A stretch of 31,654 nt of DNA from a virus (UHGV-1544975); one strand, 5' to 3'. Shown: positions 1 through 31,654, counted from the first letter of the stretch. The notes: generated by a model not told the origin, from the letters alone. A program made the numbers and translations.

Positions 1-2
1 TT

Positions 3-119
3 CATTATGCAAAAAATGATAATGAAATTGTCATTGTTGGATTTTCAAGAGAACACATACCTTTCCTTTCATCAGATGGAAACAACAATCCGCTTTTTAA
101 TGATGAAGAAGAAGAATAA
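3..119 (+). CDS. C-terminal fragment of an unidentified protein entering from the left edge (ends ...NDEEEE)
   Basis: Open frame from window start to TAA at 117..119, followed directly by a hairpin plus T-tract. Confidence 0.2.
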   Translation, partial: HYAKNDNEIVIVGFSREHIPFLSSDGNNNPLFNDEEEE

Positions 120-140
120 GCCCGCGCTGCGGGCTTTTTT
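120..140 (+). terminator. Rho-independent terminator (GCCCGC-gct-GCGGGC then TTTTTT)
   Basis: GC stem followed by a 6-T run immediately after the stop at 119. Confidence 0.5.
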
Positions 141-171
141 GTGGACGAAACAAAAGTCAGTGCTACACTCA

Positions 172-199
172 TTGACGCCACATTGAGGTGGCTTATAGA
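172..199 (+). promoter_or_regulatory. Possible sigma70-like promoter (TTGACG, 16-nt spacer, TATAGA)
   Basis: Hexamers read directly; the leader to the ATG at 213 would be very short, which weakens the call. Confidence 0.3.
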
Positions 200-212
200 T
201 GGAAATTTCACA

Positions 213-374
213 ATGAAAAAAGCATTTGCTGCACTGTTCGTTTTGTTGTCTCTGGTAGCTTCAACTCAGGCCTTTGCCGGTCGTTGTCAGCACGACAGCG
301 ATACTGCCGCTGACGGCTCCCGCTGCGGTGGGCGTTCTGCGGATTCCCGCCCGGGCGGCGGTGGCATTCGTTAA
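213..374 (+). CDS. Small secreted protein (53 aa) with N-terminal signal peptide
   Basis: Internal ATG of track ORF 141..374; MKKAFAALFVLLSLVASTQAFA is a signal-peptide-like N-terminus with an AxA site; Gly/Cys-rich mature part. Confidence 0.4.
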   Translation: MKKAFAALFVLLSLVASTQAFAGRCQHDSDTAADGSRCGGRSADSRPGGGGIR

Positions 375-396
375 AAACAAGGCCGCGAAAGCGGCC
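369..396 (-). terminator. Terminator at the end of the late operon (GGCCGC-GAAA-GCGGCC; U-tract on the minus strand)
   Basis: 6-bp GC stem with tetraloop; reverse complement is followed by TTGTTTTT; lies between convergent genes. Confidence 0.5.
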
Positions 397-397
397 T

Positions 398-409
398 GTG
401 ACATGTCAC
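398..409. repeat. 12-bp perfect palindrome GTGACATGTCAC, copy 1 of 3
   Basis: Exact match to copies at 17880..17891 and 20145..20156; overlaps the stop codon of 406..702. Confidence 0.8.
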
Positions 410-702
410 GCTCTTTTTCTGAATGATAGCCATTCGAAAAATGATGACATTCCACCGCAGACAATAGCAAAGATGATCCCACCAAAGAAGAGAAGGCCAG
501 CCTGCCACCACTCCCACCGCCATACATCCACAGCGCCAACCATACCAACAATAGCTCCAACAAATGGAATATAGCTCACGATGAAAGCAATGGGGGCTGC
601 AATTATCCAGTGCAATCCCCACCATGATTCAAGCCCAGCCATAATTGCTGCCAACTGAAAAAGACCAACGACGATATAAACAATGAATCCTATAGCTTGC
701 AT
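406..702 (-). CDS. Small membrane protein, about 3 predicted TM helices (holin-like or exclusion/conversion protein; function unknown)
   Basis: 98 aa, three long hydrophobic segments, AGGTGA RBS; last gene of the late operon. Confidence 0.55.
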   Translation of the reverse strand: MQAIGFIVYIVVGLFQLAAIMAGLESWWGLHWIIAAPIAFIVSYIPFVGAIVGMVGAVDVWRWEWWQAGLLFFGGIIFAIVCGGMSSFFEWLSFRKRA

Positions 703-714
703 GTAGTCACCTAT

Positions 715-888
715 TTACCCAGTAAAAATCAGAGGCCTCCCCTCAATAAGGCTTGCAACAAGAACTATTCCCTGCACAACAAAGATGAACCAGCAAATAG
801 CTTGAGTCTGAGGGTTAAGAAAATATTTGTAGCGGTCAATAAATAACAACCCACCAAAAATTATCACACTCAAAATAATTAAAAACAC
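715..888 (-). CDS. Small hydrophobic protein (57 aa, GTG start), two predicted TM segments
   Basis: Hand-translated; below the ORF-track size cutoff; AAGGAAG RBS overlapping the upstream stop; fills the gap between 898..3372 and 406..702. Confidence 0.35.
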   Translation of the reverse strand: MFLIILSVIIFGGLLFIDRYKYFLNPQTQAICWFIFVVQGIVLVASLIEGRPLIFTG

Positions 889-897
889 AACACTTCC

Positions 898-3372
898 TTA
901 TTGCGGAGTGACATCCTGAGGTCGCCACCAGTATGTCTGGTTAAACTCTTTCTTCGAACGTTGCTCCATTTTACGCAAATAGCCTGGTGAAAAATACTCC
1001 TGCATCTGGTTAAAAATCATGTGATCGAGAGCCGCCTTCAAGTACCAGAGATTCGCACCTGGCATCAAACCTTTCCCCAGCTTCACCAGATCACCACCAG
1101 TCTGCTCACTCTTCCCTTCCACAGCATTTAACGGTATGCCCTGAGCAATCTTCACTACGTCATCAACCAGACCAGCTACCGGGCCAAGCATCGACGCCAG
1201 CGCGCCGCTTCCGTACCTAGTGTGATCTGACAATAAAAAGTCACCGTAAAGGCCAAGACCACCACCTTTCAGTAGAGCACCAAGCCAAAATTTAGCAGCA
1301 TCTTCTCCTGTCATCTCGCGAGGATTACGACCAGACGCAAGGTCGTTAAGTTGCTGCGACAAAGCGCCAAGAATGGTCGTACTGGCAATAAACGTCGCAA
1401 TATATGCCGCACGCCCACCAGCAGACGGCATACCCATAGCGCGTGACCAGTGACGCATAACCACCGAGATAGGGAACGATTTAAACAGGAAAACACTTCT
1501 CGTTAATTCACCTTTCCATGTTCCACGCTGAATACCAGAACCGGTTATCAGTTGCTCACGTGCTCCTGGTGTAATAACAGCCATATCAACTTCTTCAGTT
1601 ACGGCACCGAGCAGTTTACGCATTGCCTCAAATTTCACGCGTTCAGGCTCACCAAGATGTTTAACTGCTGAATCAGGGATACGCATAATGCTTTCCGGTG
1701 TCAGCATCGTATTATTACCGTTCCCCCAGTCCTCCTGTTGCGCCAGCTTCCATACGCTCCAGTCTGTGTCAGTAATCCCTTTGCTTTTCAGGATACGAAA
1801 ATCAGAGTCATCGAGGCTACGAAGGTCTGGTGTCCGTGACACTACTTCTCCCAGGCTTCCCATCATGGTTACGCCATAGGCGCGCTTGTGCGCATCTGAC
1901 CATGCTGTAAGCCCACTGGCACGCATTACCGCCGTTGCCGCCCAACGAGACACTGACGGCCCCATATTATCCATCGCCCAGCGGTTAACGCTGCCAAGTA
2001 GAGATTCCATCGCCAGACCAGCGCGGCGCGCCCGCGCAAGTTCTGTACGGTTCGTTGGGTCCATAGCTTCAAGCTGGTTGCGGAATAACTGGTTCATTGG
2101 AAGGTTGGTCACCTTCGCAGACAGATACATGGTTCCAAGATCAGAGAACGATGATAGCAACGCAGATCCGAGTCTGCTGGCAACCAGCCAGTTGCGGATA
2201 TTGTCAGACCATCGCGCGATGTGCGGATTCGCTACAGGCTGTGTCTTTCCGGAAATAAAGTTGTACAGATTCTCTGTGTTGTTCGCCAGCCGCTCGACTT
2301 TACCGGTTTTACTCGGGTTAGCTGTTGCCGTTTCTGCCTTCACCTGATCAAGAAGAGAGCGGAAAACATGATCGGGGTTTGGGCCATATGTTTCCACCAG
2401 TGCAATATCTTTACTGATACCTTCCAGGTGACCGACCATGATTTCCCATAGAGAGCGATCGCCATAAAGTTGCTGATATTGCAGATAGGAATCTGCATCT
2501 TTGAAATGTATCTGTCGTGATGCATTACCACGGTTAGCACGTGCGCCGGAAATTCGCATTCCGGTATCAGTAAGCTTATTCAGCCCACCAGTAGCGATCG
2601 TGTTATAAGCCTCTCCAAGAAATGCAGACAACTCGGCATCGTTCATCAGTTGTCCATCGGCTCGGATATAATATTTGCGATCCAGCTTACCTATAACATC
2701 GCTAACCCACTTATCCTTTGATACCGCCCCAACCTTTTCCATAGAATGATGTTGAGGGAACCCCCAGTTTTCGAGATAGCCAATGTCCCCACCAGCATCA
2801 TTAAACCGGCGGCGCAGTAGATCTGTCACTTCTCTCCACGCCTTAGCACCTTTTCTTGCTTTAGCATTGCCAGTATTTTGCCCTCGCATTTCATATACCA
2901 GGTCACGTACGCCCGCTTCATCTTCAAACAGACCAAAAAAGCGAGGATCAACTGCTTCGAATGCCTCCTGCAATTGACTCAATGCATAATCACGAGTGGC
3001 TTTTGTTCTGGACTCAACAGAGAGGAAATTCGATTTACCGTCTGCATTAAAAGCAATAGTACGGTTAAGAGCGCCAAGTTTCCCATCAGCCCCTTGATAG
3101 CTATTGATAAATTTATCCAATCTCTGACGTGCGGCTATAGTGAGGGCCACACGACGTTTCTTTAATGCCGCTTCTCGCTGTAATTCTTCAGATGCCAATT
3201 GTGCTGCACGATATAGCCGCTCTGATTCGGAAAGTTGTCTCCACGACATCGGGTCATCACGAGCAATGGAGCGCATATTTCGATAAATGCGGTCTTCAAT
3301 GCTCTGTATTTCTCGCGCCGTTAACGTGCGCTGCGCCGCCTGCTGGACCGCTTGTATACATTCCTGTCTCAT
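898..3372 (-). CDS. Large internal virion / ejection protein (824 aa)
   Basis: Size and position at the distal end of the virion module; hydrophobic segments typical of ejection proteins; no specific family recognised. Confidence 0.45.
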   Translation of the reverse strand: MRQECIQAVQQAAQRTLTAREIQSIEDRIYRNMRSIARDDPMSWRQLSESERLYRAAQLASEELQREAALKKRRVALTIAARQRLDKFINSYQGADGKLGALNRTIAFNADGKSNFLSVESRTKATRDYALSQLQEAFEAVDPRFFGLFEDEAGVRDLVYEMRGQNTGNAKARKGAKAWREVTDLLRRRFNDAGGDIGYLENWGFPQHHSMEKVGAVSKDKWVSDVIGKLDRKYYIRADGQLMNDAELSAFLGEAYNTIATGGLNKLTDTGMRISGARANRGNASRQIHFKDADSYLQYQQLYGDRSLWEIMVGHLEGISKDIALVETYGPNPDHVFRSLLDQVKAETATANPSKTGKVERLANNTENLYNFISGKTQPVANPHIARWSDNIRNWLVASRLGSALLSSFSDLGTMYLSAKVTNLPMNQLFRNQLEAMDPTNRTELARARRAGLAMESLLGSVNRWAMDNMGPSVSRWAATAVMRASGLTAWSDAHKRAYGVTMMGSLGEVVSRTPDLRSLDDSDFRILKSKGITDTDWSVWKLAQQEDWGNGNNTMLTPESIMRIPDSAVKHLGEPERVKFEAMRKLLGAVTEEVDMAVITPGAREQLITGSGIQRGTWKGELTRSVFLFKSFPISVVMRHWSRAMGMPSAGGRAAYIATFIASTTILGALSQQLNDLASGRNPREMTGEDAAKFWLGALLKGGGLGLYGDFLLSDHTRYGSGALASMLGPVAGLVDDVVKIAQGIPLNAVEGKSEQTGGDLVKLGKGLMPGANLWYLKAALDHMIFNQMQEYFSPGYLRKMEQRSKKEFNQTYWWRPQDVTPQ

Positions 3373-3377
3373 TTAAT

Positions 3378-5180
3378 TTAACCTCTCAAGAAACACGCCA
3401 CAGCGACATCAAACAGGCTGGAATCCTGTATTGCCTGCTCACTTTCCCTGTTCGCTTCATCCAGTACTTCACGCGCACTGCGCGATTGTGGATTACCATC
3501 ATCATCCAGCACGGTGATTATCATGTCCGGAGATTCAAGCAGCGAGTCTTCAGCTATACGCAGATCAATATCTCCTGCCGGATCTGCCATCATTTTTTGT
3601 TCTGTCTGTTGCAATATCTTACCGGGCTCAAAAGGAGCTACTTCGTCTGGCGTCCTGACCTCTGCTGTTTTATAGAATGAAACAGCCTGAGCATTAAGTT
3701 CACTTTCTGCCTGCTGTCGTCGTGCCAGTTCTGCTCGAGCTTCAAAAAACTGACCTCCAGGCTCGTGCGGCGCCAACGCGTTACGAGAAAATTCCAGGCG
3801 TTCTTGTGCCTGCCGGATTCGTTGGTCAATATCGCGAAGTCTGGCCTGTTTATCTGATCGAGCACGAGATAAAGCCTTACCGCTACCGGTTGGCTCTTCT
3901 GCAAGAATTTGTGCGCGCTGTTCAGTGAGATTTTCAATAATTCGTTGGCTATTAGCGATTTCAGACTGGTAAACCTGTCTATCGCCACGCGACAAAAGCT
4001 GCGCGGCCTGTTCTTCAAGCAACCGATTTTCTATAGCGCGCGCCGTTACTCCATCATCTACAGATGACAGAGCCTCATTAACTGCCTGAGACAGCAGACT
4101 CTTGCGCCCAGGAATTTCACTGAAAGATGCAGACTCAACAATGCTGGCAACGTCTACAGGTCTCCCCTGGCTAACATCAGACATGGCTTTTCGCAGAGCC
4201 TGAATGTGCGAATTACGCGAAAGCACGTTGATCGGAACGCCGGGAGCAATATCAATTTCAGCATGATGAGCGGCATTCGCCGCCAGTGCAGCATCAATAT
4301 CAACTGGTGAAAAATTTGGTGTGCTTGTAGACTCGCCGCGAGAGTTAATAAATCTGCCGACACCACCAAACGCCACCCCAAGAACAGCATCAATAGCAAT
4401 TGCCTGTCGATCCAACACATCATACTGGTTAGCCATTTCGCTATAGCCACCATCACGAAGCGTTTTTGCAGTAAGCCCACGCTGTGCCATACCGAACGCA
4501 ATATTTGTACCTGCGGCATAGGCAATATCTGGCGTTGCACGTACTGCTGTTGCTGCGGCGCGTCGCACTGAACTTTCACCCGTCCGCGCAAGCTGAGCCG
4601 CCACACCTTCCGCCAGCGCACCACCAGCACGTAACCCGAGGCTCATAGGGATCAGTGTTCCGGCACCAGCAGTAATACCCTGCACTAATCCCGCTTCCTG
4701 CGCCGTCCTGAAATCAACACCCTGTGCTGTCAACCGTTCAAACTCAGAAAAACCCTGTAGAGAAGTTACCGCCGCAGCACCTCCGACCGGACCACCGAGC
4801 GTTGTACCGACAACAGCCTGCCCGCCCATATCGAACAACCCATAAAGGACCTGCCCGGCGGTTCCGGTTGTCGCGGCATCAGGCGTCAGCCGCTTAACCT
4901 GCTGCTCTGCTAGTTTTCTCTGCTCAGCAATGTATGAAACTGAAGTGTCATTGAGCGAGGTGTTTTCGTTAACAAGCTGAGCAATCGGTGATACGATTTT
5001 ATCCATCCCTGCCCATAGCAACTGATCTGGCTTTGCCACCAGCCCGGAGTACAAACCAGACAATGCCGCTCCTACAGCATTGTCGAAAAAACCAACATCG
5101 CTGTTAAAGCCAACTGGATTTGATGCTGCTTCGTCAAGCTGCTGATTCTGGTTTACTGGATTAAGGCCAAAGTAACTCAT
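3378..5180 (-). CDS. Internal virion protein (600 aa), Ala/Gly-rich with a coiled-coil C-terminal part
   Basis: Position between two other large virion proteins; 4-nt overlap with the upstream gene. Confidence 0.45.
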   Translation of the reverse strand: MSYFGLNPVNQNQQLDEAASNPVGFNSDVGFFDNAVGAALSGLYSGLVAKPDQLLWAGMDKIVSPIAQLVNENTSLNDTSVSYIAEQRKLAEQQVKRLTPDAATTGTAGQVLYGLFDMGGQAVVGTTLGGPVGGAAAVTSLQGFSEFERLTAQGVDFRTAQEAGLVQGITAGAGTLIPMSLGLRAGGALAEGVAAQLARTGESSVRRAAATAVRATPDIAYAAGTNIAFGMAQRGLTAKTLRDGGYSEMANQYDVLDRQAIAIDAVLGVAFGGVGRFINSRGESTSTPNFSPVDIDAALAANAAHHAEIDIAPGVPINVLSRNSHIQALRKAMSDVSQGRPVDVASIVESASFSEIPGRKSLLSQAVNEALSSVDDGVTARAIENRLLEEQAAQLLSRGDRQVYQSEIANSQRIIENLTEQRAQILAEEPTGSGKALSRARSDKQARLRDIDQRIRQAQERLEFSRNALAPHEPGGQFFEARAELARRQQAESELNAQAVSFYKTAEVRTPDEVAPFEPGKILQQTEQKMMADPAGDIDLRIAEDSLLESPDMIITVLDDDGNPQSRSAREVLDEANRESEQAIQDSSLFDVAVACFLRG

Positions 5181-7690
5181 TGCGGAATATCTCCGGAGAA
5201 TCTCTGACGCTTCTGTGTCAGATCAAGAACAACGGGAGAACCATCATCTTTTAGCAGATAACCAGTACCAAGTTTCACCAGGTACTGACTATCGCCGTAA
5301 CTTTGCAAACCATACTGACCAGGCGGTGTTTTTATCCCTGTGCCAACAACTTGTTCATTCCAAGCCTGATTAACCTGCTTATCGAATTGCTCTGCAGACA
5401 TTCCCCACGGCAAAAGAACATTCCCCATTCCGTTATAGTCATGCACGCCACCTGTAGCTACGTTAACAGCCTGTTTCCAGATATCATTGTCAATTTCGCC
5501 TGATACCACGCCTTTTTTCGCCATCACACCAGCGTAATAGTCCTTTGCGATCTCGTATGCCATTGATGCCCCCTGAGCATCACCAGCAAATGCATCCTTC
5601 ACCATGTCAGAAAACTCAAGGCGAAGATCAGCATCTTTAGGCATCGGAATACCTTTCGCGTCATCAGTACCTTTACGAGCCGCCGCGCCAGCAAGAATTG
5701 TCTGCGCAGCGGTTTCTGGAGACACGGAAACATCCGGATTAAACCAGTTTTTTTCTGCCAAAATACCACCTGGCTTATCCATCAGTATCCCGGCAACGGC
5801 AGCAGATGGAGCGTTGGCACTGATCTGCTGTAGTGCTGACATATACACCTGCCCACCACCAGTGCTCTGCCTGATGGTATCGAGATATGCTGCCTGTTGG
5901 GAAACGGGCGCATCACGAAAGAAAACACCGATCTGATTGGCCTCGTCTTTGGAAAAGAACGTCAGTGGAGTGCCATATGACTTAGCAAGGTCACTGACCT
6001 GAGCAGCACGCAAGGCAACGCTCTGTCCAAAGTTATCCTTATTGCTCATGTCGATAGGCTTTGCCTGTCCGGCGGCAAGAGAGAACTGTACAGGATCAGC
6101 CTGTCGCTGCTTTATCACCTGACTTGCAGCCGACACAACGTTGTCATAAAGAGCGGCTCGTGCCGCATAACCCTCCCCTGTCTCACCAGTATCCGGGCGT
6201 AATTGCTCAACATATGCTGTAATGCTGCTTGTCGGCATGTTGCGGAAAGAGCCTATATACTGTCCGGCGATTTGCGTATTTCTGAACTCGGTATATCGCA
6301 GGTTTCCTTCTCTTACTCCATAAGCTGCAATAAAATCAGCCTCACCAGGTGGGTTAGGAAATTCAACGCCACGCATATACGCAGCTGTCGCATCGCGAAC
6401 CTGGCTGTCAATCATCGTTTTATATTCAGCCTGCTGCTGCCGACGCAGTTGATCCGCCTGTCGCATAAAACTTGCCTGCGCCTCAGGAGATGCCGCATCG
6501 AATGCTGCATTACCGGTATAGCGTTTGGTGTTGGTTGGAATTGTTGATAAACCAAGTGCTGCACTGACACCAGCAGTTAACTGCTGATCACTGTATGGCT
6601 GGCTACCGTTCTCATGATGGATAATGGCTGCACAAAGCGCCTTCAGGGTATCAGGATTAGATGCATCGAGAGGCTCATCAGCAGAAACGCCAAGTTGTTC
6701 GCACACTGCTTTGATATACGACATAGTGTCATTTTTATCAGCAGGCGGTGCCCAGCGATTAATTATCTCGCTGACGGTATCAATACCCTGCCTCTGATAC
6801 GACATCAGGTTCCGCCCTAATGCACGAATCCCGTGTTCAGGTGTTTCGAATTTAGCAAATCGACCATCATCACCGGTCTGGCCTACCCACGGATTAGTTT
6901 TGCTGTATTCGAGATTTCCTGGGTTATTGTTGCGTATGCCACGGGCACGCTCGGAAGAGTCACTATCTGCTACAGCACGGCGAGCTCCAGCAGCAGTATC
7001 ACTTAACTCGCCATTACTTTGGATGAATGCGGTCGCATTGTTTGCCGACCACTGGGACAATGCAGCATCAGCAACCTTCTCTTTAAACTCGATTTTCTTG
7101 GCCTGGATTTGCTCGTTGCTCCAGCCATGTGCAACACCGTACTCCTCAATTTGCTGGAAAGTTTGCTTGTTAGCCAATACGTATGCGGCGTTGTCGCCAT
7201 ACAATGCTGCGGCATTTTTACCATTGTTCAGCAGTGTCGCCTGAAACTGGCCTTCTTCGTAGGCATTAATTTGCCCTATCTCGTGTCGCCCGGCCTGCGT
7301 AGTGAACTGAATGCGCTGCTGCTGCGCCTGCTGCATGAAAGCATTACGAGCCTGTTCATCCGGCAGCGACATAGCCAGTTGTTCGACCTGAGCATCAAAC
7401 TGCTGCGTATACTCATGGCCTTTTCCAATAGCATTTTTCCCTTTCAGGTTAAGCAATCCTGTTTCAGGATTATTCAGCAGATCGCTGCTTATCTGACTGA
7501 GGTTAAGAGATGCCTCCTGAGCCAGAGCGATATTGGCACGCTGTTTTGCCTGCCCCAAAACATCAATTGCCTCTGTCCCTGCCCGAACAAAAGCATCACC
7601 AATACCTTGCTGAGAAAACGTCTGCAAGCCTGCTGACTGAACTCCACGACTCTCAACCTGACGTCCGGATACTGTTGGTACGACTGGCAT
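5177..7690 (-). CDS. Internal virion protein (about 837 aa) with a possible cell-wall hydrolase segment
   Basis: Likely start at the internal ATG 7688..7690 (GGAGG RBS, overlaps the upstream stop) rather than track start 7765; conserved-looking segment GIRNNNPGNLEY... Confidence 0.45.
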   Translation of the reverse strand: MPVVPTVSGRQVESRGVQSAGLQTFSQQGIGDAFVRAGTEAIDVLGQAKQRANIALAQEASLNLSQISSDLLNNPETGLLNLKGKNAIGKGHEYTQQFDAQVEQLAMSLPDEQARNAFMQQAQQQRIQFTTQAGRHEIGQINAYEEGQFQATLLNNGKNAAALYGDNAAYVLANKQTFQQIEEYGVAHGWSNEQIQAKKIEFKEKVADAALSQWSANNATAFIQSNGELSDTAAGARRAVADSDSSERARGIRNNNPGNLEYSKTNPWVGQTGDDGRFAKFETPEHGIRALGRNLMSYQRQGIDTVSEIINRWAPPADKNDTMSYIKAVCEQLGVSADEPLDASNPDTLKALCAAIIHHENGSQPYSDQQLTAGVSAALGLSTIPTNTKRYTGNAAFDAASPEAQASFMRQADQLRRQQQAEYKTMIDSQVRDATAAYMRGVEFPNPPGEADFIAAYGVREGNLRYTEFRNTQIAGQYIGSFRNMPTSSITAYVEQLRPDTGETGEGYAARAALYDNVVSAASQVIKQRQADPVQFSLAAGQAKPIDMSNKDNFGQSVALRAAQVSDLAKSYGTPLTFFSKDEANQIGVFFRDAPVSQQAAYLDTIRQSTGGGQVYMSALQQISANAPSAAVAGILMDKPGGILAEKNWFNPDVSVSPETAAQTILAGAAARKGTDDAKGIPMPKDADLRLEFSDMVKDAFAGDAQGASMAYEIAKDYYAGVMAKKGVVSGEIDNDIWKQAVNVATGGVHDYNGMGNVLLPWGMSAEQFDKQVNQAWNEQVVGTGIKTPPGQYGLQSYGDSQYLVKLGTGYLLKDDGSPVVLDLTQKRQRFSGDIPQ

Positions 7691-8699: not shown

Positions 8700-11170
8700 C
8701 AGAATCCCCCAACAGTAAGGCGAGGAATAACGGCAAGAACAGACAGCGGCAACGGGTCAAGCTGACGGATTCTTACACGTCCGTTTTTGCCCCAGTTACT
8801 GTCAAGTTTCACTTCTACTTTTCCGGTAGCGTCATCAACAGGATCATCGTAGAACTCGAATTCACGCTGTTGATATTCGTACCATTTACCGCCGGGCGTA
8901 GTCGCCCAGATGCCGCGGCTGGCATTCACAACCAGAGTAACGGATGGGATCACCTGTTTTTTGTCCAGCAGCGTTTCCTGTCCGTTAATGTTGATATCCA
9001 GTGTTTCGAATTCAGCAGTTATTGGCAGGCCGATGTGCACTACAGCCCCCGGTGATTCCAGCGTGACGGCACCTCCGGAAACTACTTTCTGTGGTTCCAC
9101 GTTCGCATCAGAGAGGATGTTTACGGTCTGACCTTCAAGATGAGACAAGCCGCCAAATGCCCGGCGCGCCATCTGCCAGTTCGTGGTGGCCACATTCCTG
9201 ATGGATGGCGGGACGTTCCTGTTAGCACGAACCACTACAGCGGTGTTGCTGGTTACAGAAATAATGTCGCAACGTAATTCTTTTGACACTTCATCGCCAG
9301 TATCAGGATCAGTTCCGGTATAAGGGAACTGTAGTTGCGCACCGACATCACTACTGGTGAAGTACGCACCACCAGAAACACTGATTGTATATTCCGCGCG
9401 GTAATCCCATTCACCAGAACCACCAGTGATGGTCATCGTTCTGTCAGACGTATTTCTTCCATCATAGCTAAGGCCAGAATCAACAAAGAAAGCATCTTCA
9501 TCGCTGGTAAATAAACGGCTGGACAGTCGCTCGATGTATCTCACTGTTTGCCCGTTAACGGTTCGGTTAACGACGAAATACACCGCATCTTCATTGCCTT
9601 CGCTGATACTGCATGTGCTTTCATATTTTCCGGTACTGGACTGTGGTGCCCATGCAAAAACCTGTTGATCACGCAGATAGGTCATCACCAGTAATTTACC
9701 GTCATCACGAATGCAGAAGGCGCTGGAGTAAGGGACAATAGAGAAGCACCAGTCAACAATGCTGTGCTTCTGAAAAAGATGATTGGCAAGGATGGTCAGG
9801 TCGTTCCCCTGATAGCCGTCAACATCGAATGAGTAGGCCAGATCACGGACAACACTGCCTTTCTCCTGGACGAACAGAGCAATATTCGCCACGGCAATTG
9901 GTGGGACATTGCTCGAGCCATTTGATCCCTGAGAGCTGAATGCAAATGATGATGGGGTTAACACTTTGTTCTGGTCGCCGGTGATGACGTACTCACCTCC
10001 GGAAGTCAGTGCCACCAGCGAACCGACATCAATCAGGTGGCGGATCTCATTAACCTGACGCCCGGCATAGGTGTAGATAATTCTGTCGTCATCCTGCGTA
10101 GGATTGCTTTTGCCAAAATCCTTATAATCCCCGGTACGGCTGGCCCAGATAGTCTGAGGGAACGCAGTCGATGCGGCGAAGTAAAGGCGTTGTTGATAAT
10201 AAACAACAGTGCCAGGATAACCGTTAATACTGTTCCAGGCATATTTAGCCCATTTATAGCTGGCATTATCCTCGCCAACTACCTGCGAAGGGATATAGGA
10301 AATCACCTCGGCAGTTGCAGTAGTTCCATTTGCAGCAGAGATACGGGCAATGCCAAAACCACTGTGCAGATACTCCCACTCAATGCCGGTATCATCATCA
10401 CCGGATCCGCCCCAGCCATCCCATGATGTGCCTTCTGTATGCGAAGGGCGCAAAGTGCCTGTTTTGCCTGCTGTAACGGCGCGATAGTAGTTACTGTCTG
10501 CACGGCGAATATCGCCAATCGACGTACTCTTACTGGTTTCCCATACCGGCACAGAATCCACTGCAGGCTGTTCCAGATAGAACAATTTGCCTACCTGCTC
10601 CGCGCCAAAAATTGAGGCGCTTGCCGTTAACGTAATTGTCCCGGTGCTGGCGCTGGCATAAACCGTCACTGACTCGTCAATATTGATATCTTCAAATGGC
10701 CCGTTCTTCGTTACCACATCAACCAGTTGCCAGTTGTCATGCGCATAGCGGCGCAACTCTTTCGGCGGGTATGCCGGATGAACCAGCGTAAGCACGTCTG
10801 CGCTTTGCGTGAATTTAATTCGGAACAGATCGGCTTCAGTATATGGCGTGGCAATTTCATAAATAACATTGCTGCTGTTCAGCACCAACGCACCATCTTT
10901 GATAACGCGCATGTACTGGTGTCCGAACTCCAGAGCATAAGTCTGAACCGTCGAGAACTGGAACGGGATCAGGCGGCATTTCCGATTTGGGTATTTGGCG
11001 GCACCGACAAAACGCGTACCAGGTCGATTCTCAACGCCGCCATACTGCCGCACGATAAAGTTATCGCACTTGCGCAATGCCACCTGGTACTTCGCCATGT
11101 CGATACGACCGTACAACGACGGTCCAATCTCACCACCGGCAAAGCTGGGCTGGATCCAACTGATAGCCAT
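8699..11170 (-). CDS. Tail tubular protein B-like (nozzle), T7 gp12-like (823 aa)
   Basis: Follows the adaptor-like gene; N-terminus pattern GGEIG...NRPG resembles T7 gp12 from memory; size matches. Confidence 0.5.
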   Translation of the reverse strand: MAISWIQPSFAGGEIGPSLYGRIDMAKYQVALRKCDNFIVRQYGGVENRPGTRFVGAAKYPNRKCRLIPFQFSTVQTYALEFGHQYMRVIKDGALVLNSSNVIYEIATPYTEADLFRIKFTQSADVLTLVHPAYPPKELRRYAHDNWQLVDVVTKNGPFEDINIDESVTVYASASTGTITLTASASIFGAEQVGKLFYLEQPAVDSVPVWETSKSTSIGDIRRADSNYYRAVTAGKTGTLRPSHTEGTSWDGWGGSGDDDTGIEWEYLHSGFGIARISAANGTTATAEVISYIPSQVVGEDNASYKWAKYAWNSINGYPGTVVYYQQRLYFAASTAFPQTIWASRTGDYKDFGKSNPTQDDDRIIYTYAGRQVNEIRHLIDVGSLVALTSGGEYVITGDQNKVLTPSSFAFSSQGSNGSSNVPPIAVANIALFVQEKGSVVRDLAYSFDVDGYQGNDLTILANHLFQKHSIVDWCFSIVPYSSAFCIRDDGKLLVMTYLRDQQVFAWAPQSSTGKYESTCSISEGNEDAVYFVVNRTVNGQTVRYIERLSSRLFTSDEDAFFVDSGLSYDGRNTSDRTMTITGGSGEWDYRAEYTISVSGGAYFTSSDVGAQLQFPYTGTDPDTGDEVSKELRCDIISVTSNTAVVVRANRNVPPSIRNVATTNWQMARRAFGGLSHLEGQTVNILSDANVEPQKVVSGGAVTLESPGAVVHIGLPITAEFETLDININGQETLLDKKQVIPSVTLVVNASRGIWATTPGGKWYEYQQREFEFYDDPVDDATGKVEVKLDSNWGKNGRVRIRQLDPLPLSVLAVIPRLTVGGF

Positions 11171-17303: not shown

Positions 17304-17380
17304 GTGGCATTAGCTCAGTTGGACAGAGCAACCGCCTTCTAAGCGGTTGGTCGCAGGTTCGAATCCTGCATGCCACGCCA
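17304..17380 (+). tRNA. tRNA-Arg (anticodon UCU), 77 nt including 3' CCA
   Basis: Folded by hand: perfect 7-bp acceptor stem GTGGCAT/ATGCCAC, D-stem GCTC/GAGC, anticodon stem ACCGC/GCGGT, loop CTTCTAA, T-arm GCAGG-TTCGAAT-CCTGC, discriminator G, CCA. Confidence 0.9.
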
Positions 17381-17423
17381 GAATCACGCCTAAGGACCGT
17401 GATGCCAGAAGTTCCAGGTGCTT

Positions 17424-17465
17424 GGCGGTGATGGTTTCCCTTGAAGGACTATCACCGCCCTTTTT
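17424..17465 (+). terminator. Rho-independent terminator after the tRNA (GGCGGTGAT...ATCACCGCC then CTTTTT)
   Basis: 9-bp stem plus T-run. Confidence 0.6.
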
Positions 17466-17543
17466 ACAGCAGGACGCCATTGCGATGACTTCATGCTGTA
17501 AACCAGTACAGCCACGGAAGGCATAACTCATTGCTTCCAGTTC

Positions 17544-17567
17544 GCCCGGTTCGCCGGGCATTTTTTT
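17544..17567 (+). terminator. Second terminator-like hairpin (GCCCGG-UUCG-CCGGGC then 7 T) directly upstream of the DUF2829-like gene RBS
   Basis: 6-bp GC stem, UUCG tetraloop, 7-T tract; RBS AAGGTGAG follows immediately. Confidence 0.6.
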
Positions 17568-30403: not shown

Positions 30404-31654
30404 TTATTCCCCCGCCATCCACTTCTCAAACTTCGACGGGGAGAACGGAATCAGATCCGTATGCTCCCCGTCAATCCAAGAATCAATCATATCGGCCCAC
30501 TGCTGCAACATGTAGGCGCGCTGTCTGGCGTATTCCGCTTTGTTATATACGGCGCGCACACCTTTCTGCTCATGTGCCAGAGCCTTTTCAATCCAGTCTG
30601 AAGGATAACCAGCCTCATGCAACAACGTACTGGCTGTACGGCGCATATCGTGTACGGTGAAGTCCTGAATATGCTCACCATCTTCATTTATTATTTTCAC
30701 CGTTCTGTCGATCAGAGAGTTCAGTGCGGCATTAGATAATGGCTTCCGGAAATTGTAACGACCAGGAACCAGGTATTCACTTCCACCAGCGCACATCTGC
30801 AACCCGACCAATATATCCTGTGCCTGTTTAGGCAGGTAAATAACGTGCGCCCGGCTTCCTTTCATGCGGTCTGAAGGAATTGTCCATGTCCATTTTTTAA
30901 AATCTATTTCATCCCACGTTGCATTGGTGAATTCGCCCTTACGAACCATAGTGATAAGCACCAGTTTTAAAGCCATTTTCATAGTGCCCATAGCACCAAT
31001 GGCATCCAGCGTGCGGAAGAACAGGCCAATTTCTTCTGGTGTCAGTGTTCGCTCTCGTGGTTTAAATATGGCGATAGACGAAGGTTTAATGTCAGCCGCA
31101 GGATTAAACAAACCATGACCACGGTCATTGGCGTGACGGTATACGCTGCTGATGATCTCCCTGGCCTGCACTGCTGTTGCCCGGCCACCGCGTTCGACAA
31201 TCCGGTCACACAAATCACGAACCATCGATGTGGTAATTTCAGCCATCATTTTATTGCCAAGAACCGGAAGTATGTCACGGTCGATCACCGCCTGTTTCAT
31301 TGCGCGGGTACTGTCAGCCAGGATGACGTGTTTCATATAACTGTCGGTATGTACCGCAAACGTCTCGGCACCACGAATCTTTTTGATACCGTCACGTTTA
31401 GCCGCAGCCGGTGACTGGCCTGCTTTAAGCAGCTTCTTTGCAGCAATCAGTTCTTCTCGCGCTTCTGCCAGGCTGATACCGTCACGCCCATACTGCCCGA
31501 TTACCAGCGTTTCGCGGCGACCGTTGATACGGTAGTCGTAGCGAAACGAGACCGTGCCTGACGTAAGCACAGCCACATACAGCCCGTCACGATCGGAAAC
31601 TTTGTACAGTTTGTCCTGTGGCTTGAGGTTTTTTAATTTTGTATCGGTAAGCAC
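30404..31654 (-). CDS. int: Tyrosine integrase, P4-type; start at or just beyond the window edge
   Basis: N-terminal LTDTKLKNLKP...DGLYV arm-binding-type domain; C-terminal catalytic region with HDMRRT and terminal Y; first codon in window is GTG at 31652..31654. Confidence 0.9.
   Translation of the reverse strand: MLTDTKLKNLKPQDKLYKVSDRDGLYVAVLTSGTVSFRYDYRINGRRETLVIGQYGRDGISLAEAREELIAAKKLLKAGQSPAAAKRDGIKKIRGAETFAVHTDSYMKHVILADSTRAMKQAVIDRDILPVLGNKMMAEITTSMVRDLCDRIVERGGRATAVQAREIISSVYRHANDRGHGLFNPAADIKPSSIAIFKPRERTLTPEEIGLFFRTLDAIGAMGTMKMALKLVLITMVRKGEFTNATWDEIDFKKWTWTIPSDRMKGSRAHVIYLPKQAQDILVGLQMCAGGSEYLVPGRYNFRKPLSNAALNSLIDRTVKIINEDGEHIQDFTVHDMRRTASTLLHEAGYPSDWIEKALAHEQKGVRAVYNKAEYARQRAYMLQQWADMIDSWIDGEHTDLIPFSPSKFEKWMAGE

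What the first reader, a model, noticed from the sequence alone, without database searches (positions are those of the whole stretch)
406..888. No recognisable lysis cassette or Q antiterminator; two small membrane proteins end the late operon
Between the P-like gene and terminase, where lambdoid phages carry nin, Q and lysis genes, there are only small soluble proteins and no endolysin-like ORF. The late operon ends with a 57-aa two-TM ORF (715..888, GTG start) and a 98-aa three-TM protein (406..702). These could be holins placed as in T7, or superinfection-exclusion or O-antigen conversion proteins. An endolysin is either off-window or unrecognised.
Basis: partly seen in the sequence, partly recalled or inferred. 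Interest (0 to 1): 0.5.

Follow-up and report, generated by a model that had tools for sequence, protein, structure and literature searches.

The report
Accessory membrane genes after ejection genes
The "missing" lysis genes simply lie just outside this window, and the two small membrane-protein genes are real but optional extras of unknown function in a swappable slot, more likely to protect the host cell from related phages than to lyse it.

Summary
The window is an epsilon15/phiV10-like prophage (Uetakevirus), 100% identical over window 1-1500 to one in E. coli ECSC054. Both ORFs are real. They sit at the stated coordinates, have ribosome-binding sites, are under purifying selection, and end the late operon at a terminator (397..370).

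The absence of a lysis cassette is a window-edge effect. In the identical prophage, two holin-type genes, a GH19 endolysin and a spanin lie 5.0-6.4 kb left of the window, beyond the tail-fibre gene. This is the normal Uetakevirus layout.

Neither ORF matches a holin, SieA, O-antigen-conversion or defence family. The 98-aa protein belongs to a large unnamed membrane family (PHROG 3075; 728 clusters). In every phage or prophage locus examined it lies in the accessory region just after the last ejection-protein gene, directly adjacent to that gene in all but one. It also occurs alone in chromosomes and mobile elements. phiV10 lacks it despite 99% identical flanking proteins.

The slot carries interchangeable small envelope proteins and is empty in some relatives, so these genes are accessory. 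My best guess, by inference only, is envelope-level superinfection exclusion analogous to P22 SieA. Interest is low to moderate.

The parts
898..3372 (-). 824-aa internal virion / ejection protein. It is the homolog of epsilon15 gp17 (T7 gp16-class 'IVP-D') and is the last large gene of the late structural operon. It anchors the accessory slot.
   Evidence: ORF. It is 99% identical to phiV10 p20, annotated 'virion structural protein'. The IVP-D assignment of epsilon15 gp17 comes from PMC4819975.
715..888 (-). 57-aa protein with two hydrophobic segments. GTG start 888..886, RBS GGAAG 897..893, stop TAA 717..715. It belongs to a small Enterobacteriaceae-only family and always lies 9-10 nt after the 824-aa gene.
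   Evidence: There are 12 homolog clusters of 56-58 aa at 75-96% identity. dN/dS is 0.20 against BUCT711. It occurs with or without the 98-aa gene. It has no Pfam, NCBIfam or PADLOC hit. It shows no similarity to phiV10 p21, epsilon15 gp18, gp22 or the holin.
406..702 (-). 98-aa membrane protein of the PHROG 3075 family. ATG 702..700, RBS AGGTGA 712..707. Predicted layout: TM1 (about 3-24), central helix-break-helix hairpin (32-42 / 48-59), Trp-rich loop DVWRWEWWQ (58-67), TM2 (about 65-88), basic C-tail RKRA.
   Evidence: phrog_3075 E 2e-54 over the full length. 52 close homologs. Invariant residues G13 Q16 A19 G29 P46 G53 G56 A57 W63 W65 Q67 A68 L71 F72. 728 representative clusters. AF2 pLDDT 92. 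dN/dS 0.019. Topology inference.
370..397 (-). Intrinsic terminator ending the late operon: stem AGGCCGC-TTTC-GCGGCCT followed by TGTTTTTAAC. It is conserved in phiV10 and phiv142-3. Its stem can also serve the convergent + strand ORF 213..374.
   Evidence: terminator scan. (alignment shows the flank is conserved while the cargo differs). phiV10 annotates a terminator at the same place.

Best explanation
The two ORFs are accessory ('moron'-type) inner-membrane proteins. They sit in a hypervariable cargo slot at the 3' end of the ejection-protein operon of an epsilon15/phiV10-like prophage. They are not the phage's lysis system, which lies off-window after the tail-fibre gene.

**What is shown**
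- The genes are transcribed in the same direction as the late operon and end at its terminator.
- The slot between the conserved end of the 824-aa gene and the conserved terminator holds different, unrelated small envelope proteins in different relatives.
- The 98-aa protein belongs to a widespread, unnamed membrane family that can exist without any phage partner.

**What is inferred**
- The 98-aa protein sits in the inner membrane with N- and C-termini in the cytoplasm and two acidic, Trp-rich loops at the periplasmic face.
- There it interferes with the trans-envelope DNA-delivery conduit built by the ejection proteins of incoming related podophages, or with a conserved host factor that conduit needs. 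This would be superinfection exclusion.
- This would be functionally analogous to P22 SieA, which occupies the same genomic position. SieA is a ~162-aa inner-membrane protein with three predicted TM segments, encoded right after ejection gene 16 and before ant and the tailspike gene.
- The 57-aa peptide is a second, independent cargo gene of the same slot and probably of the same functional class.
For: **The lysis cassette is elsewhere**
- Identical prophage in E. coli ECSC054.
- Relatives phiV10, phiv142-3, epsilon15, BUCT711 and SPN1S.
- More distant prophages that carry the family gene: Cronobacter, Salmonella and Yersinia.

**The genes are accessory**
- phiV10 has the same flanks (its p20 is 99% identical to the 824-aa protein) but lacks the 98-aa gene and carries an unrelated 46-aa 2-TM ORF instead.
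- The slot is empty in BcepC6B, Ab31 and VP5, where the tail-fibre gene follows directly.

**The slot cargo is always envelope-targeted and swappable**
- epsilon15 gp18.
- phiV10 p21 and SPN1S_0020.
- A 93-aa membrane protein plus the 98-aa gene in L030; the 57-aa type plus a gp18-type ORF in L031.
- Signal-peptide proteins or a 103-aa 2-TM protein in 13 of 79 viral contigs.
- Lipoprotein-like genes in MPK9, YeP5 and ST11phi3.2.

**The family repeatedly lies next to the IVP-D gene despite deep divergence**
- Cronobacter: 1 nt after the stop codon.
- Salmonella L006: 36 nt after.
- Acinetobacter TPWB-05: overlaps the stop codon; family membership by hhalign 98%, E 6e-14.
- MAG L022: convergent with the IVP-D gene, as sieA is with gene 16.
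- In all 79 IMG/VR loci with intact upstream sequence, an 824-like gene lies upstream.
- In about 50,700 phage records the family was found only in this slot.

**The protein can act autonomously**
- Members occur next to umuC, aconitase/GntR, MutS, a resolvase, an integrase, and on plasmid-like contigs.

**SieA facts**
- Inner membrane, three TM segments, blocks DNA injection, escape mutations map to gp16 and gp20: PMC10883804.
- Position of sieA.
Against: - There is no functional data of any kind.
- There is no sequence relationship to SieA (hhalign 0.2%), and no PADLOC defence-model hit.
- Unlike sieA, the genes here are co-oriented with the late operon, and no sigma-70-like promoter was detected upstream. 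Expression in the lysogen, which a classical exclusion gene needs, is unproven. Translational coupling in Cronobacter (1-nt gap) points to late expression.
- The slot is a general hot spot that also holds Bro/antirepressor genes and toxin-antitoxin genes. Adjacency to the ejection gene may therefore reflect a permissive insertion site rather than a functional link.
- The family protein is far more conserved (58-61%) than the neighbouring ejection protein (24-27%). It does not co-evolve with that protein.
Confidence: 0.4

Rival explanations
1. **Generic membrane cargo.** The 98-aa protein is a self-sufficient small membrane module, for example an oligomeric ion-conducting or stress-related protein. 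It would alter host membrane physiology (lysogenic conversion, or a viroporin-like late function) rather than act on incoming phages. Its position would only reflect a permissive insertion site.
For: - The family is large and mostly non-phage: 728 clusters, stand-alone in chromosomes, on plasmid-like contigs and islands. It occurs as tandem repeats or fused to DUF805, RDD or MORN.
- It is under very strong purifying selection, independent of ejection-protein divergence.
- The predicted TM / re-entrant hairpin / TM layout has conserved small-residue motifs.
Against: - All fold matches are below meaningful thresholds.
- There is no K+ selectivity-filter motif (by inspection of the alignment).
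- This reading does not explain why every phage-borne copy found sits next to the IVP-D gene in at least five deeply diverged lineages, including one on the opposite strand.
Confidence: 0.25
2. **Partner of the ejection proteins.** One or both small proteins are late-expressed helpers. They might protect the producing cell's inner membrane from newly made membrane-active ejection proteins, assist their folding or packaging, or be packaged and ejected themselves.
For: - The genes are co-transcribed and tightly spaced with the IVP-D gene: 9-10 nt for the 57-aa gene, and a 1-nt gap or overlap for the family gene in Cronobacter and TPWB-05.
- Adjacency recurs across deep divergence.
- Every Uetakevirus examined has at least one small membrane ORF there.
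Against: - phiV10 has a 99% identical IVP-D without the 98-aa or 57-aa gene.
- The slot is empty in BcepC6B, Ab31 and VP5.
- The cargo types are mutually unrelated.
- The family exists in non-phage contexts.
- In MAG L022 the gene is on the opposite strand.
Confidence: 0.15
3. **Holin, antiholin or pinholin-like lysis factor** placed at the end of the structural operon.
For: - Small size, 2-3 hydrophobic segments, a short basic C-terminus, and late co-transcription.
- A sub-threshold hit to Phage_holin_5_2 (E 0.027).
- Non-orthologous replacement of cargo in the slot resembles the diversity of holins.
Against: - A complete cassette with two holin-type genes, an endolysin and a spanin exists elsewhere in the same prophage and in every relative.
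- The hit is 14 bits below Pfam's cutoff, and there is no PHROG or NCBIfam holin match.
- There is no similarity to the Uetakevirus holin-type proteins gp23 and gp24.
- The gene is dispensable in phiV10, and the slot is empty in some relatives.
- The family occurs in chromosomal and plasmid contexts and as multi-domain fusions.
Confidence: 0.1
4. **O-antigen / serotype-conversion factor**, such as a small inhibitor of the host O-antigen polymerase like epsilon15 gp22.
For: - Epsilon15-like phages do encode a 66-aa 2-TM polymerase inhibitor and other conversion genes.
- The ORFs have a similar size and class.
Against: - There is no similarity to gp22 and no GtrA or acyltransferase hit.
- Conversion genes in this phage group lie beside the tail-fibre gene, not here.
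- The 98-aa protein is 58-94% identical across E. coli, Klebsiella, Salmonella, Cronobacter and Yersinia, whose O-antigen machineries differ.
Confidence: 0.03

Closest known systems
P22 SieA (superinfection exclusion A)
   Same: - Same genomic position: immediately after the last ejection-protein gene and before the antirepressor region and tailspike gene.
- Same class: a small inner-membrane protein with about three hydrophobic segments.
- It is accessory, and it comes in several mutually dissimilar sequence types (PMC10883804).
- In MAG L022 the family gene is convergent with the ejection gene, as sieA is with gene 16.
   Different: - No sequence relationship (hhalign 0.2%), and the FxRYPxEAxxFNK motif is absent.
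- 98 aa rather than about 162 aa.
- In this window the gene is co-oriented with the late operon and has no detectable promoter of its own.
- The family is also common outside phages.
- No exclusion phenotype is known.
epsilon15 gp18 / phiV10 p21 / SPN1S_0020 (small 2-TM ORFs after gp17)
   Same: - Same slot, same orientation, same two-TM architecture, same terminator downstream.
- All are of unknown function.
   Different: - No detectable sequence similarity to the 57-aa ORF.
- The gp18 type can co-occur with the 57-aa type (L031). They are separate cassettes, not alleles.
Phage holins (class I lambda S, class II S21, Uetakevirus gp23/gp24)
   Same: Small size, 2-3 hydrophobic segments, basic C-terminus, late expression.
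   Different: - Not adjacent to an endolysin.
- Below all holin model thresholds.
- Unrelated to the resident holin-type proteins.
- Dispensable in phiV10.
- A full cassette is present elsewhere in the prophage.
Other phage injection-blocking membrane proteins (T4 Imm, HK97 gp15)
   Same: From my own knowledge, not tested here: these are small inner-membrane proteins encoded inside or beside structural-gene clusters, and they block DNA entry by related phages.
   Different: - No sequence comparison was run against them.
- They belong to different phage types.

Membership tests
PHROG 3075 (unknown function) | Full-length match to the family profile | tested here: met
   E 2.2e-54, residues 1-97 against profile positions 1-97 of 98.
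Holin (any Pfam / PHROG / NCBIfam holin family) | Profile match at or above the curated threshold | tested here: not met
   Best hit is PF16079 at 15.2 bits against a cutoff of 29.2. The 57-aa ORF has no hit. There is no NCBIfam hit, and the PHROG hits are 'unknown function'. hhalign of the 98-aa profile against epsilon15 gp23 gives 0.1%, and of the 57-aa profile against gp24 gives 0.1%.
Holin | Encoded in a cassette with an endolysin (and spanin) | tested here: not met
   The nearest endolysin is about 5.3-5.9 kb away, beyond the tail-fibre gene, and already has two holin-type genes of its own. The same holds in all relatives.
Holin | At least one TMD plus a charged cytoplasmic C-terminus | tested here: inconclusive
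   Hydrophobic segments are present. The C-tail is only 11 residues with 3 basic and 1 acidic residue in the 98-aa protein, and 'EGRPLIFTG' in the 57-aa protein.
Holin | Causes timed membrane permeabilisation or lysis | not testable with these tools
   Needs inducible expression.
P22 SieA family | Sequence homology, including the cytoplasmic FxRYPxEAxxFNK motif | tested here: not met
   hhalign probability 0.2%. The motif is described in PMC10883804 and is absent from the alignment.
P22 SieA family | Gene located just after the last ejection-protein gene, before ant and the tailspike gene | tested here: met
   P22; this prophage.
P22 SieA family | Own promoter and expression from the prophage | tested here: inconclusive
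   No sigma-70-like site was found on the - strand between 700 and 1500. Consensus scans miss weak promoters, and no transcript data were found.
P22 SieA family | Blocks DNA injection by related phages | not testable with these tools
   Needs plating-efficiency and K+ efflux assays.
Known anti-phage defence systems (PADLOC-DB) | Match to a defence-protein model | tested here: not met
   No hits at E<=1 for either ORF.
Serotype-conversion small membrane proteins (epsilon15 gp22; GtrA) | Homology to gp22 or GtrA, and location in the conversion locus beside the tailspike gene | tested here: not met
   hhalign gives 0.2% and 0.5%. There is no GtrA Pfam hit. The conversion genes lie elsewhere.
Pore-loop cation channels (Kcv-like miniature K+ channels) | TM / pore helix / TxGYG filter / TM, with a significant fold match | tested here: not met
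   [not shown]

The most novel reading that the evidence does not exclude
The 98-aa protein represents an undescribed, widespread family of miniature membrane proteins with a TM / re-entrant hairpin / TM layout (about 95 aa; 728 clusters; absent from Pfam). The family would form an oligomeric pore or gate in the inner membrane. Epsilon15-like and related podophages have repeatedly kept it beside their IVP-D ejection-protein gene. This could be because it controls passage of DNA or ejection proteins through the inner membrane. That would make it a new, sequence-unrelated class of injection-blocking (or injection-gating) protein whose target is conserved across Enterobacterales.
Probability: 0.15. 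Interest if true: 0.55.

Novelty: new member of a known kind. Interest (0 to 1): 0.3.

Why it matters
As posed, the puzzle of a temperate phage without a recognisable lysis system disappears. The cassette is simply outside the window, in the standard Uetakevirus position.

Two modest points remain of interest:
- The 3' end of the ejection-protein operon in this phage group is a hot spot. It exchanges small envelope-targeted genes between otherwise near-identical phages.
- One of those genes belongs to a large uncharacterised membrane family that was found in the accessory region just after the ejection-protein gene, directly beside it in all but one locus, in every phage or prophage locus examined, across very distant lineages.

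If this family blocks DNA entry, it would be a second, independent example of the P22 SieA strategy. It would also be a cheap marker for predicting cross-immunity among O-antigen-specific podophages that are used for typing and biocontrol of E. coli, Salmonella and Klebsiella.

Tried and rejected
**Family and defence-model scans**
- Pfam, NCBIfam and PADLOC scans of both ORFs gave nothing above threshold.

**Structure-based searches on the AF2 model**
- BFVD: best E 2.4.
- afdb50 was not available.
- PDB sequence and profile search: nothing.

**Profile comparisons (hhalign)**
- The 98-aa profile against P22 SieA, epsilon15 gp23, Tyrion gp19 and epsilon15 gp22: all at or below 0.5%.
- The 57-aa profile against phiV10 p21, gp22 and the gp24 holin: all below 0.5%.
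- BLASTP of the 57-aa ORF against p21 and gp18: nothing.

**Fusion partners**
- Long family members are fused only to DUF805 (3), RDD (1) and MORN (1). This is not informative about function.

**Literature**
- The phiv142-3 papers do not treat orf12.
- There were no hits for WP_001147905.
- Nothing relevant came up for Uetakevirus plus superinfection.

**Other searches**
- Rfam on window 1-1200 gave only sub-threshold leader-like hits at the + strand terminator.
- The context look-up for P0020 was not on record.
- The IMG/VR scan returned only close relatives (at least 89% identity), so it did not widen the diversity sample.

**Idea rejected**
- I considered that a small membrane ORF after IVP-D is universally required. 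The slot is empty in BcepC6B, Ab31 and VP5, so I rejected this.

Full report
**What the window is**

Megablast of window 1-4000 gives 98% identity to Escherichia phages phiv142-3 and HEMP4 and about 98% to phiV10, all genus Uetakevirus (epsilon15-like podophages). A 100% match over window 1-1500 lies in the chromosome of E. coli ECSC054.

The window's right end is exactly the integrase start codon. The window covers 31.6 kb of a genome of about 39 kb. The missing part is the stretch between the integrase and the window's left edge.

**Checking the observation**

ORFs 406..702 (-) of 98 aa and 715..888 (-) of 57 aa are present as described. Their signals are:

| Feature | Position |
|---|---|
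| RBS of the 57-aa ORF (GGAAG) | 897..893, 4 nt before the GTG |
| RBS of the 98-aa ORF (AGGTGA) | 712..707, 4 nt before the ATG |
| Gap between the two ORFs | 12 nt |
| Intrinsic terminator after the 98-aa stop | stem 397..380 plus T-run |

Both ORFs are genuine genes. Against Klebsiella phage BUCT711, dN/dS is 0.019 for the 98-aa gene (dS 1.4, so this is constraint and not recent transfer) and 0.20 for the 57-aa gene. Both shifted frames give values above 1. BUCT711 uses TTG where the window uses GTG for the 57-aa start. The N-terminus MFLIILSV is conserved in 12 homolog clusters.

Hydropathy shows three hydrophobic segments in the 98-aa protein and two in the 57-aa protein.

That region contains DnaT/HTH_36, lambda-P, DUF1064, Ead/Ea22, DUF551 and TerS hits only. 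tblastn with lysis proteins of four related phages finds nothing in the window.

**Where the lysis genes are**

In the identical ECSC054 prophage, the sequence to the left of the window reads, going leftwards from the window edge:
- small + strand genes, a BRO-N gene and a gp19-like gene;
- the tail-fibre gene;
- a putative holin (Phage_holin_8 type);
- a holin;
- a GH19 endolysin;
- a DUF2514 spanin;
- the host gene yfgI.

The cassette lies 5.0-6.4 kb left of window position 1. phiV10, phiv142-3, epsilon15, SPN1S and BUCT711 have the same layout. So do the more distant Cronobacter, Salmonella and Yersinia prophages that carry a homolog of the 98-aa gene, even where the lysis genes are of different families.

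The "missing lysis cassette" is therefore a window-edge effect.

**What the two proteins are not**

Neither reaches any Pfam, NCBIfam or PADLOC model. The only Pfam line is Phage_holin_5_2 at 15.2 bits against a cutoff of 29.2.

Profile comparisons give probabilities of at most 0.5% in every case. The 98-aa profile was compared with P22 SieA, the epsilon15 membrane protein gp23 (Phage_holin_8 type) and the epsilon15 serotype-conversion protein gp22. The 57-aa profile was compared with the epsilon15 holin gp24, gp22 and phiV10 p21.

**What the 98-aa protein is**

It matches PHROG 3075 (unknown function) over its full length, E 2e-54. It has 52 close homologs across Enterobacterales. An exhaustive profile search finds 728 representative clusters, 294 of them at E<=1e-10. 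Most are stand-alone proteins of about 100 aa. A few have the domain in tandem or fused to extra TM segments, DUF805, RDD or MORN.

The conserved features are:
- G13, Q16, A19, G29;
- a Y-I-P tip at residues 44-46;
- a G49xxxG53xxG56A57 packing motif;
- the W-x-W-x-W-W-Q-A loop.

Charge statistics on 197 homologs show a K/R-rich N-flank and C-tail. Both loops are acidic and Trp-rich, and the mid-segment tip is uncharged. Together with the broken middle helix in the AF2 model, this favours N-in/C-in with two TM helices and a re-entrant hairpin, rather than three full passes. This is an inference, not a measurement.

**Genomic context, the most informative evidence**

(a) phiV10 shares the flanks but differs in the cargo. 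The shared flanks are the end of the 824-aa gene, whose protein is 99% identical, and the terminator. Between them phiV10 has an unrelated 46-aa 2-TM ORF and no 98-aa gene.

(b) Across relatives the same slot holds different cargo:

| Phage or locus | Cargo after the ejection-protein gene |
|---|---|
| epsilon15 | gp18 (64 aa, 2 TM) |
| phiV10, SPN1S | p21 type (46 aa, 2 TM) |
| Klebsiella oxytoca prophages | 57-aa type alone |
| L031 (Salmonella) | 57-aa type plus a gp18-type ORF |
| L030 (Salmonella) | 57-aa type, a 93-aa membrane protein, the 98-aa family gene |
| 13 of 79 viral contigs | signal-peptide proteins or a 103-aa 2-TM protein, then the family gene |
| Tyrion | an unrelated 103-aa 2-TM protein |
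| MPK9, YeP5, ST11phi3.2 | lipoprotein-like genes |
| BcepC6B, Ab31, VP5 | nothing |

The slot is thus a cargo site for interchangeable, envelope-targeted accessory genes. It is not a site for a core function.

(c) The 98-aa family nonetheless keeps turning up in this slot in very distant lineages:

| Lineage | Position relative to the IVP-D gene | IVP-D identity to the window | Family protein identity to the window |
|---|---|---|---|
| Cronobacter | 1 nt after the stop codon | 24% | 61% |
| Salmonella L006 | 36 nt after | 27% | 58% |
| Yersinia L024 | one gene away | 27% (partial alignment) | 60% |
| Acinetobacter TPWB-05 | overlaps the stop codon | 31% | 32% |
| MAG L022 | convergent, opposite strand | 30% | 40% |

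Family membership of the TPWB-05 protein was confirmed by hhalign (98%, E 6e-14).

In about 50,700 phage records the family was found only in this slot.

(d) More distant members occur in non-phage settings, so the protein can act without phage partners. They lie beside umuC, aconitase/GntR, MutS, a resolvase, an integrase, and on plasmid-like contigs.

**The 57-aa protein**

This is a small family restricted to Enterobacteriaceae. It always lies 9-10 nt after the 824-aa gene. It occurs with or without the 98-aa gene, so the two are independent cassettes. It is not annotated in ECSC054 or phiv142-3.

**Mechanism**

The closest functional analogue is P22 SieA. It is an accessory inner-membrane protein of about 162 aa with three predicted TM segments. 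It is encoded immediately after ejection gene 16 and before ant and the tailspike gene. It blocks DNA injection by related phages, and escape mutations map to ejection proteins gp16 and gp20. [quoted passage not shown]

By position, protein class, dispensability and cassette diversity, the ORFs here fit that pattern. I therefore rank envelope-level superinfection exclusion first, at 0.4.

Three points weaken this:
- There is no homology to SieA.
- No promoter is detectable upstream, and the genes are co-oriented with the late operon. Lysogen expression is therefore unproven.
- The slot is a general hot spot that also accepts Bro and toxin-antitoxin genes.

The family protein is much more conserved than the neighbouring ejection protein. 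Its constraint is therefore a conserved host component or its own assembly, not the ejection protein's sequence.

The rivals are:
- a generic membrane or viroporin-like module (0.25);
- a late helper of the ejection proteins (0.15);
- a holin or antiholin (0.1);
- an O-antigen conversion factor (0.03).

**Verdict**

The headline of the finding is explained by the window boundary and is ordinary. The two ORFs are real, conserved, accessory membrane-protein genes of unknown function. They are best filed as new members of the known kind "phage moron / exclusion-type small envelope proteins".

The recurrent pairing of an unnamed 728-cluster membrane family with the IVP-D ejection gene is a modestly interesting lead. 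A simple plating-efficiency experiment could test it.

Noticed in passing
window 213..374 (+); longest ORF 141..374: A convergent small gene encodes a 53-aa secreted peptide. It has the signal sequence MKKAFAALFVLLSLVASTQAFA followed by a Gly/Arg/Asp-rich tail. It matches phrog_3117 and phrog_14503 ('membrane associated protein', moron category). It ends at the same hairpin (380-397) that terminates the late operon. PGAP annotates it as WP_000708858.1.
   Followed up: partly
window 17304..17380 (+): A tRNA-Arg (anticodon TCT) lies on the + strand inside the - strand late region, between the terminase and portal-side genes. It overlaps ORF 17310..17561 (-).
   Followed up: no
window 1..119 (+) and 30404..31654 (-): The window boundaries are not biological. 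The right end is exactly the integrase start codon. The left end cuts a + strand ORF (...NPLFNDEEEE*, WP_000671196.1 in ECSC054), which is followed by a terminator at 118..136.
   Followed up: yes
L002 (phiv142-3) 7094..7450; L044 (ECSC054) 10702..10898: Public annotations are inconsistent. phiv142-3 Orf12 is called as 118 aa, which is an N-terminally over-extended version of the 98-aa gene. The 57-aa ORF is not annotated in phiv142-3 or ECSC054, although NCBI annotates it in other E. coli genomes.
   Followed up: partly
window 731..752 (-): A weak terminator-like hairpin (AGGGGAGGCCTCT followed by GATTTTT) lies inside the last codons of the 57-aa ORF, just upstream of the 98-aa start. It could attenuate read-through into the 98-aa gene.
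   Followed up: no
L056 4121..4492; L112 4184..4492; L058 4185..4496 (IMG/VR contigs): In 13 of 79 viral contigs the 57-aa ORF is replaced. The replacement is either a signal-peptide (periplasmic) protein of 102-123 aa or a 103-aa 2-TM protein. These are further cargo types in the same slot.
   Followed up: partly
L037 4045..4455 (MPK9); L038 4028..4375 (YeP5); L040 4442..4792 (ST11-OXA245phi3.2): In more distant relatives the gene next to IVP-D encodes a small, mutually similar protein. Two of them have lipobox-like N-termini (LGGC, LSGC). This protein class is known from other phages' exclusion systems. The resemblance was judged by eye, not tested.
   Followed up: no
L006-L008 (Salmonella prophage); L043 (Acinetobacter TPWB-05): A different genome architecture. 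The ejection-protein module plus the family gene is followed by the terminase large subunit. In Salmonella there is a Bro-N gene in between. The lysis cassette is of other types (Phage_holin_2_1 plus Phage_lysozyme).
   Followed up: no
P0057 (427 aa) and other long homologs: The ~95-aa membrane domain occurs 3-4 times in tandem in one protein. It is fused to DUF805, RDD or MORN domains in a few others. The domain has no Pfam entry.
   Followed up: partly
[not shown]
   Followed up: partly
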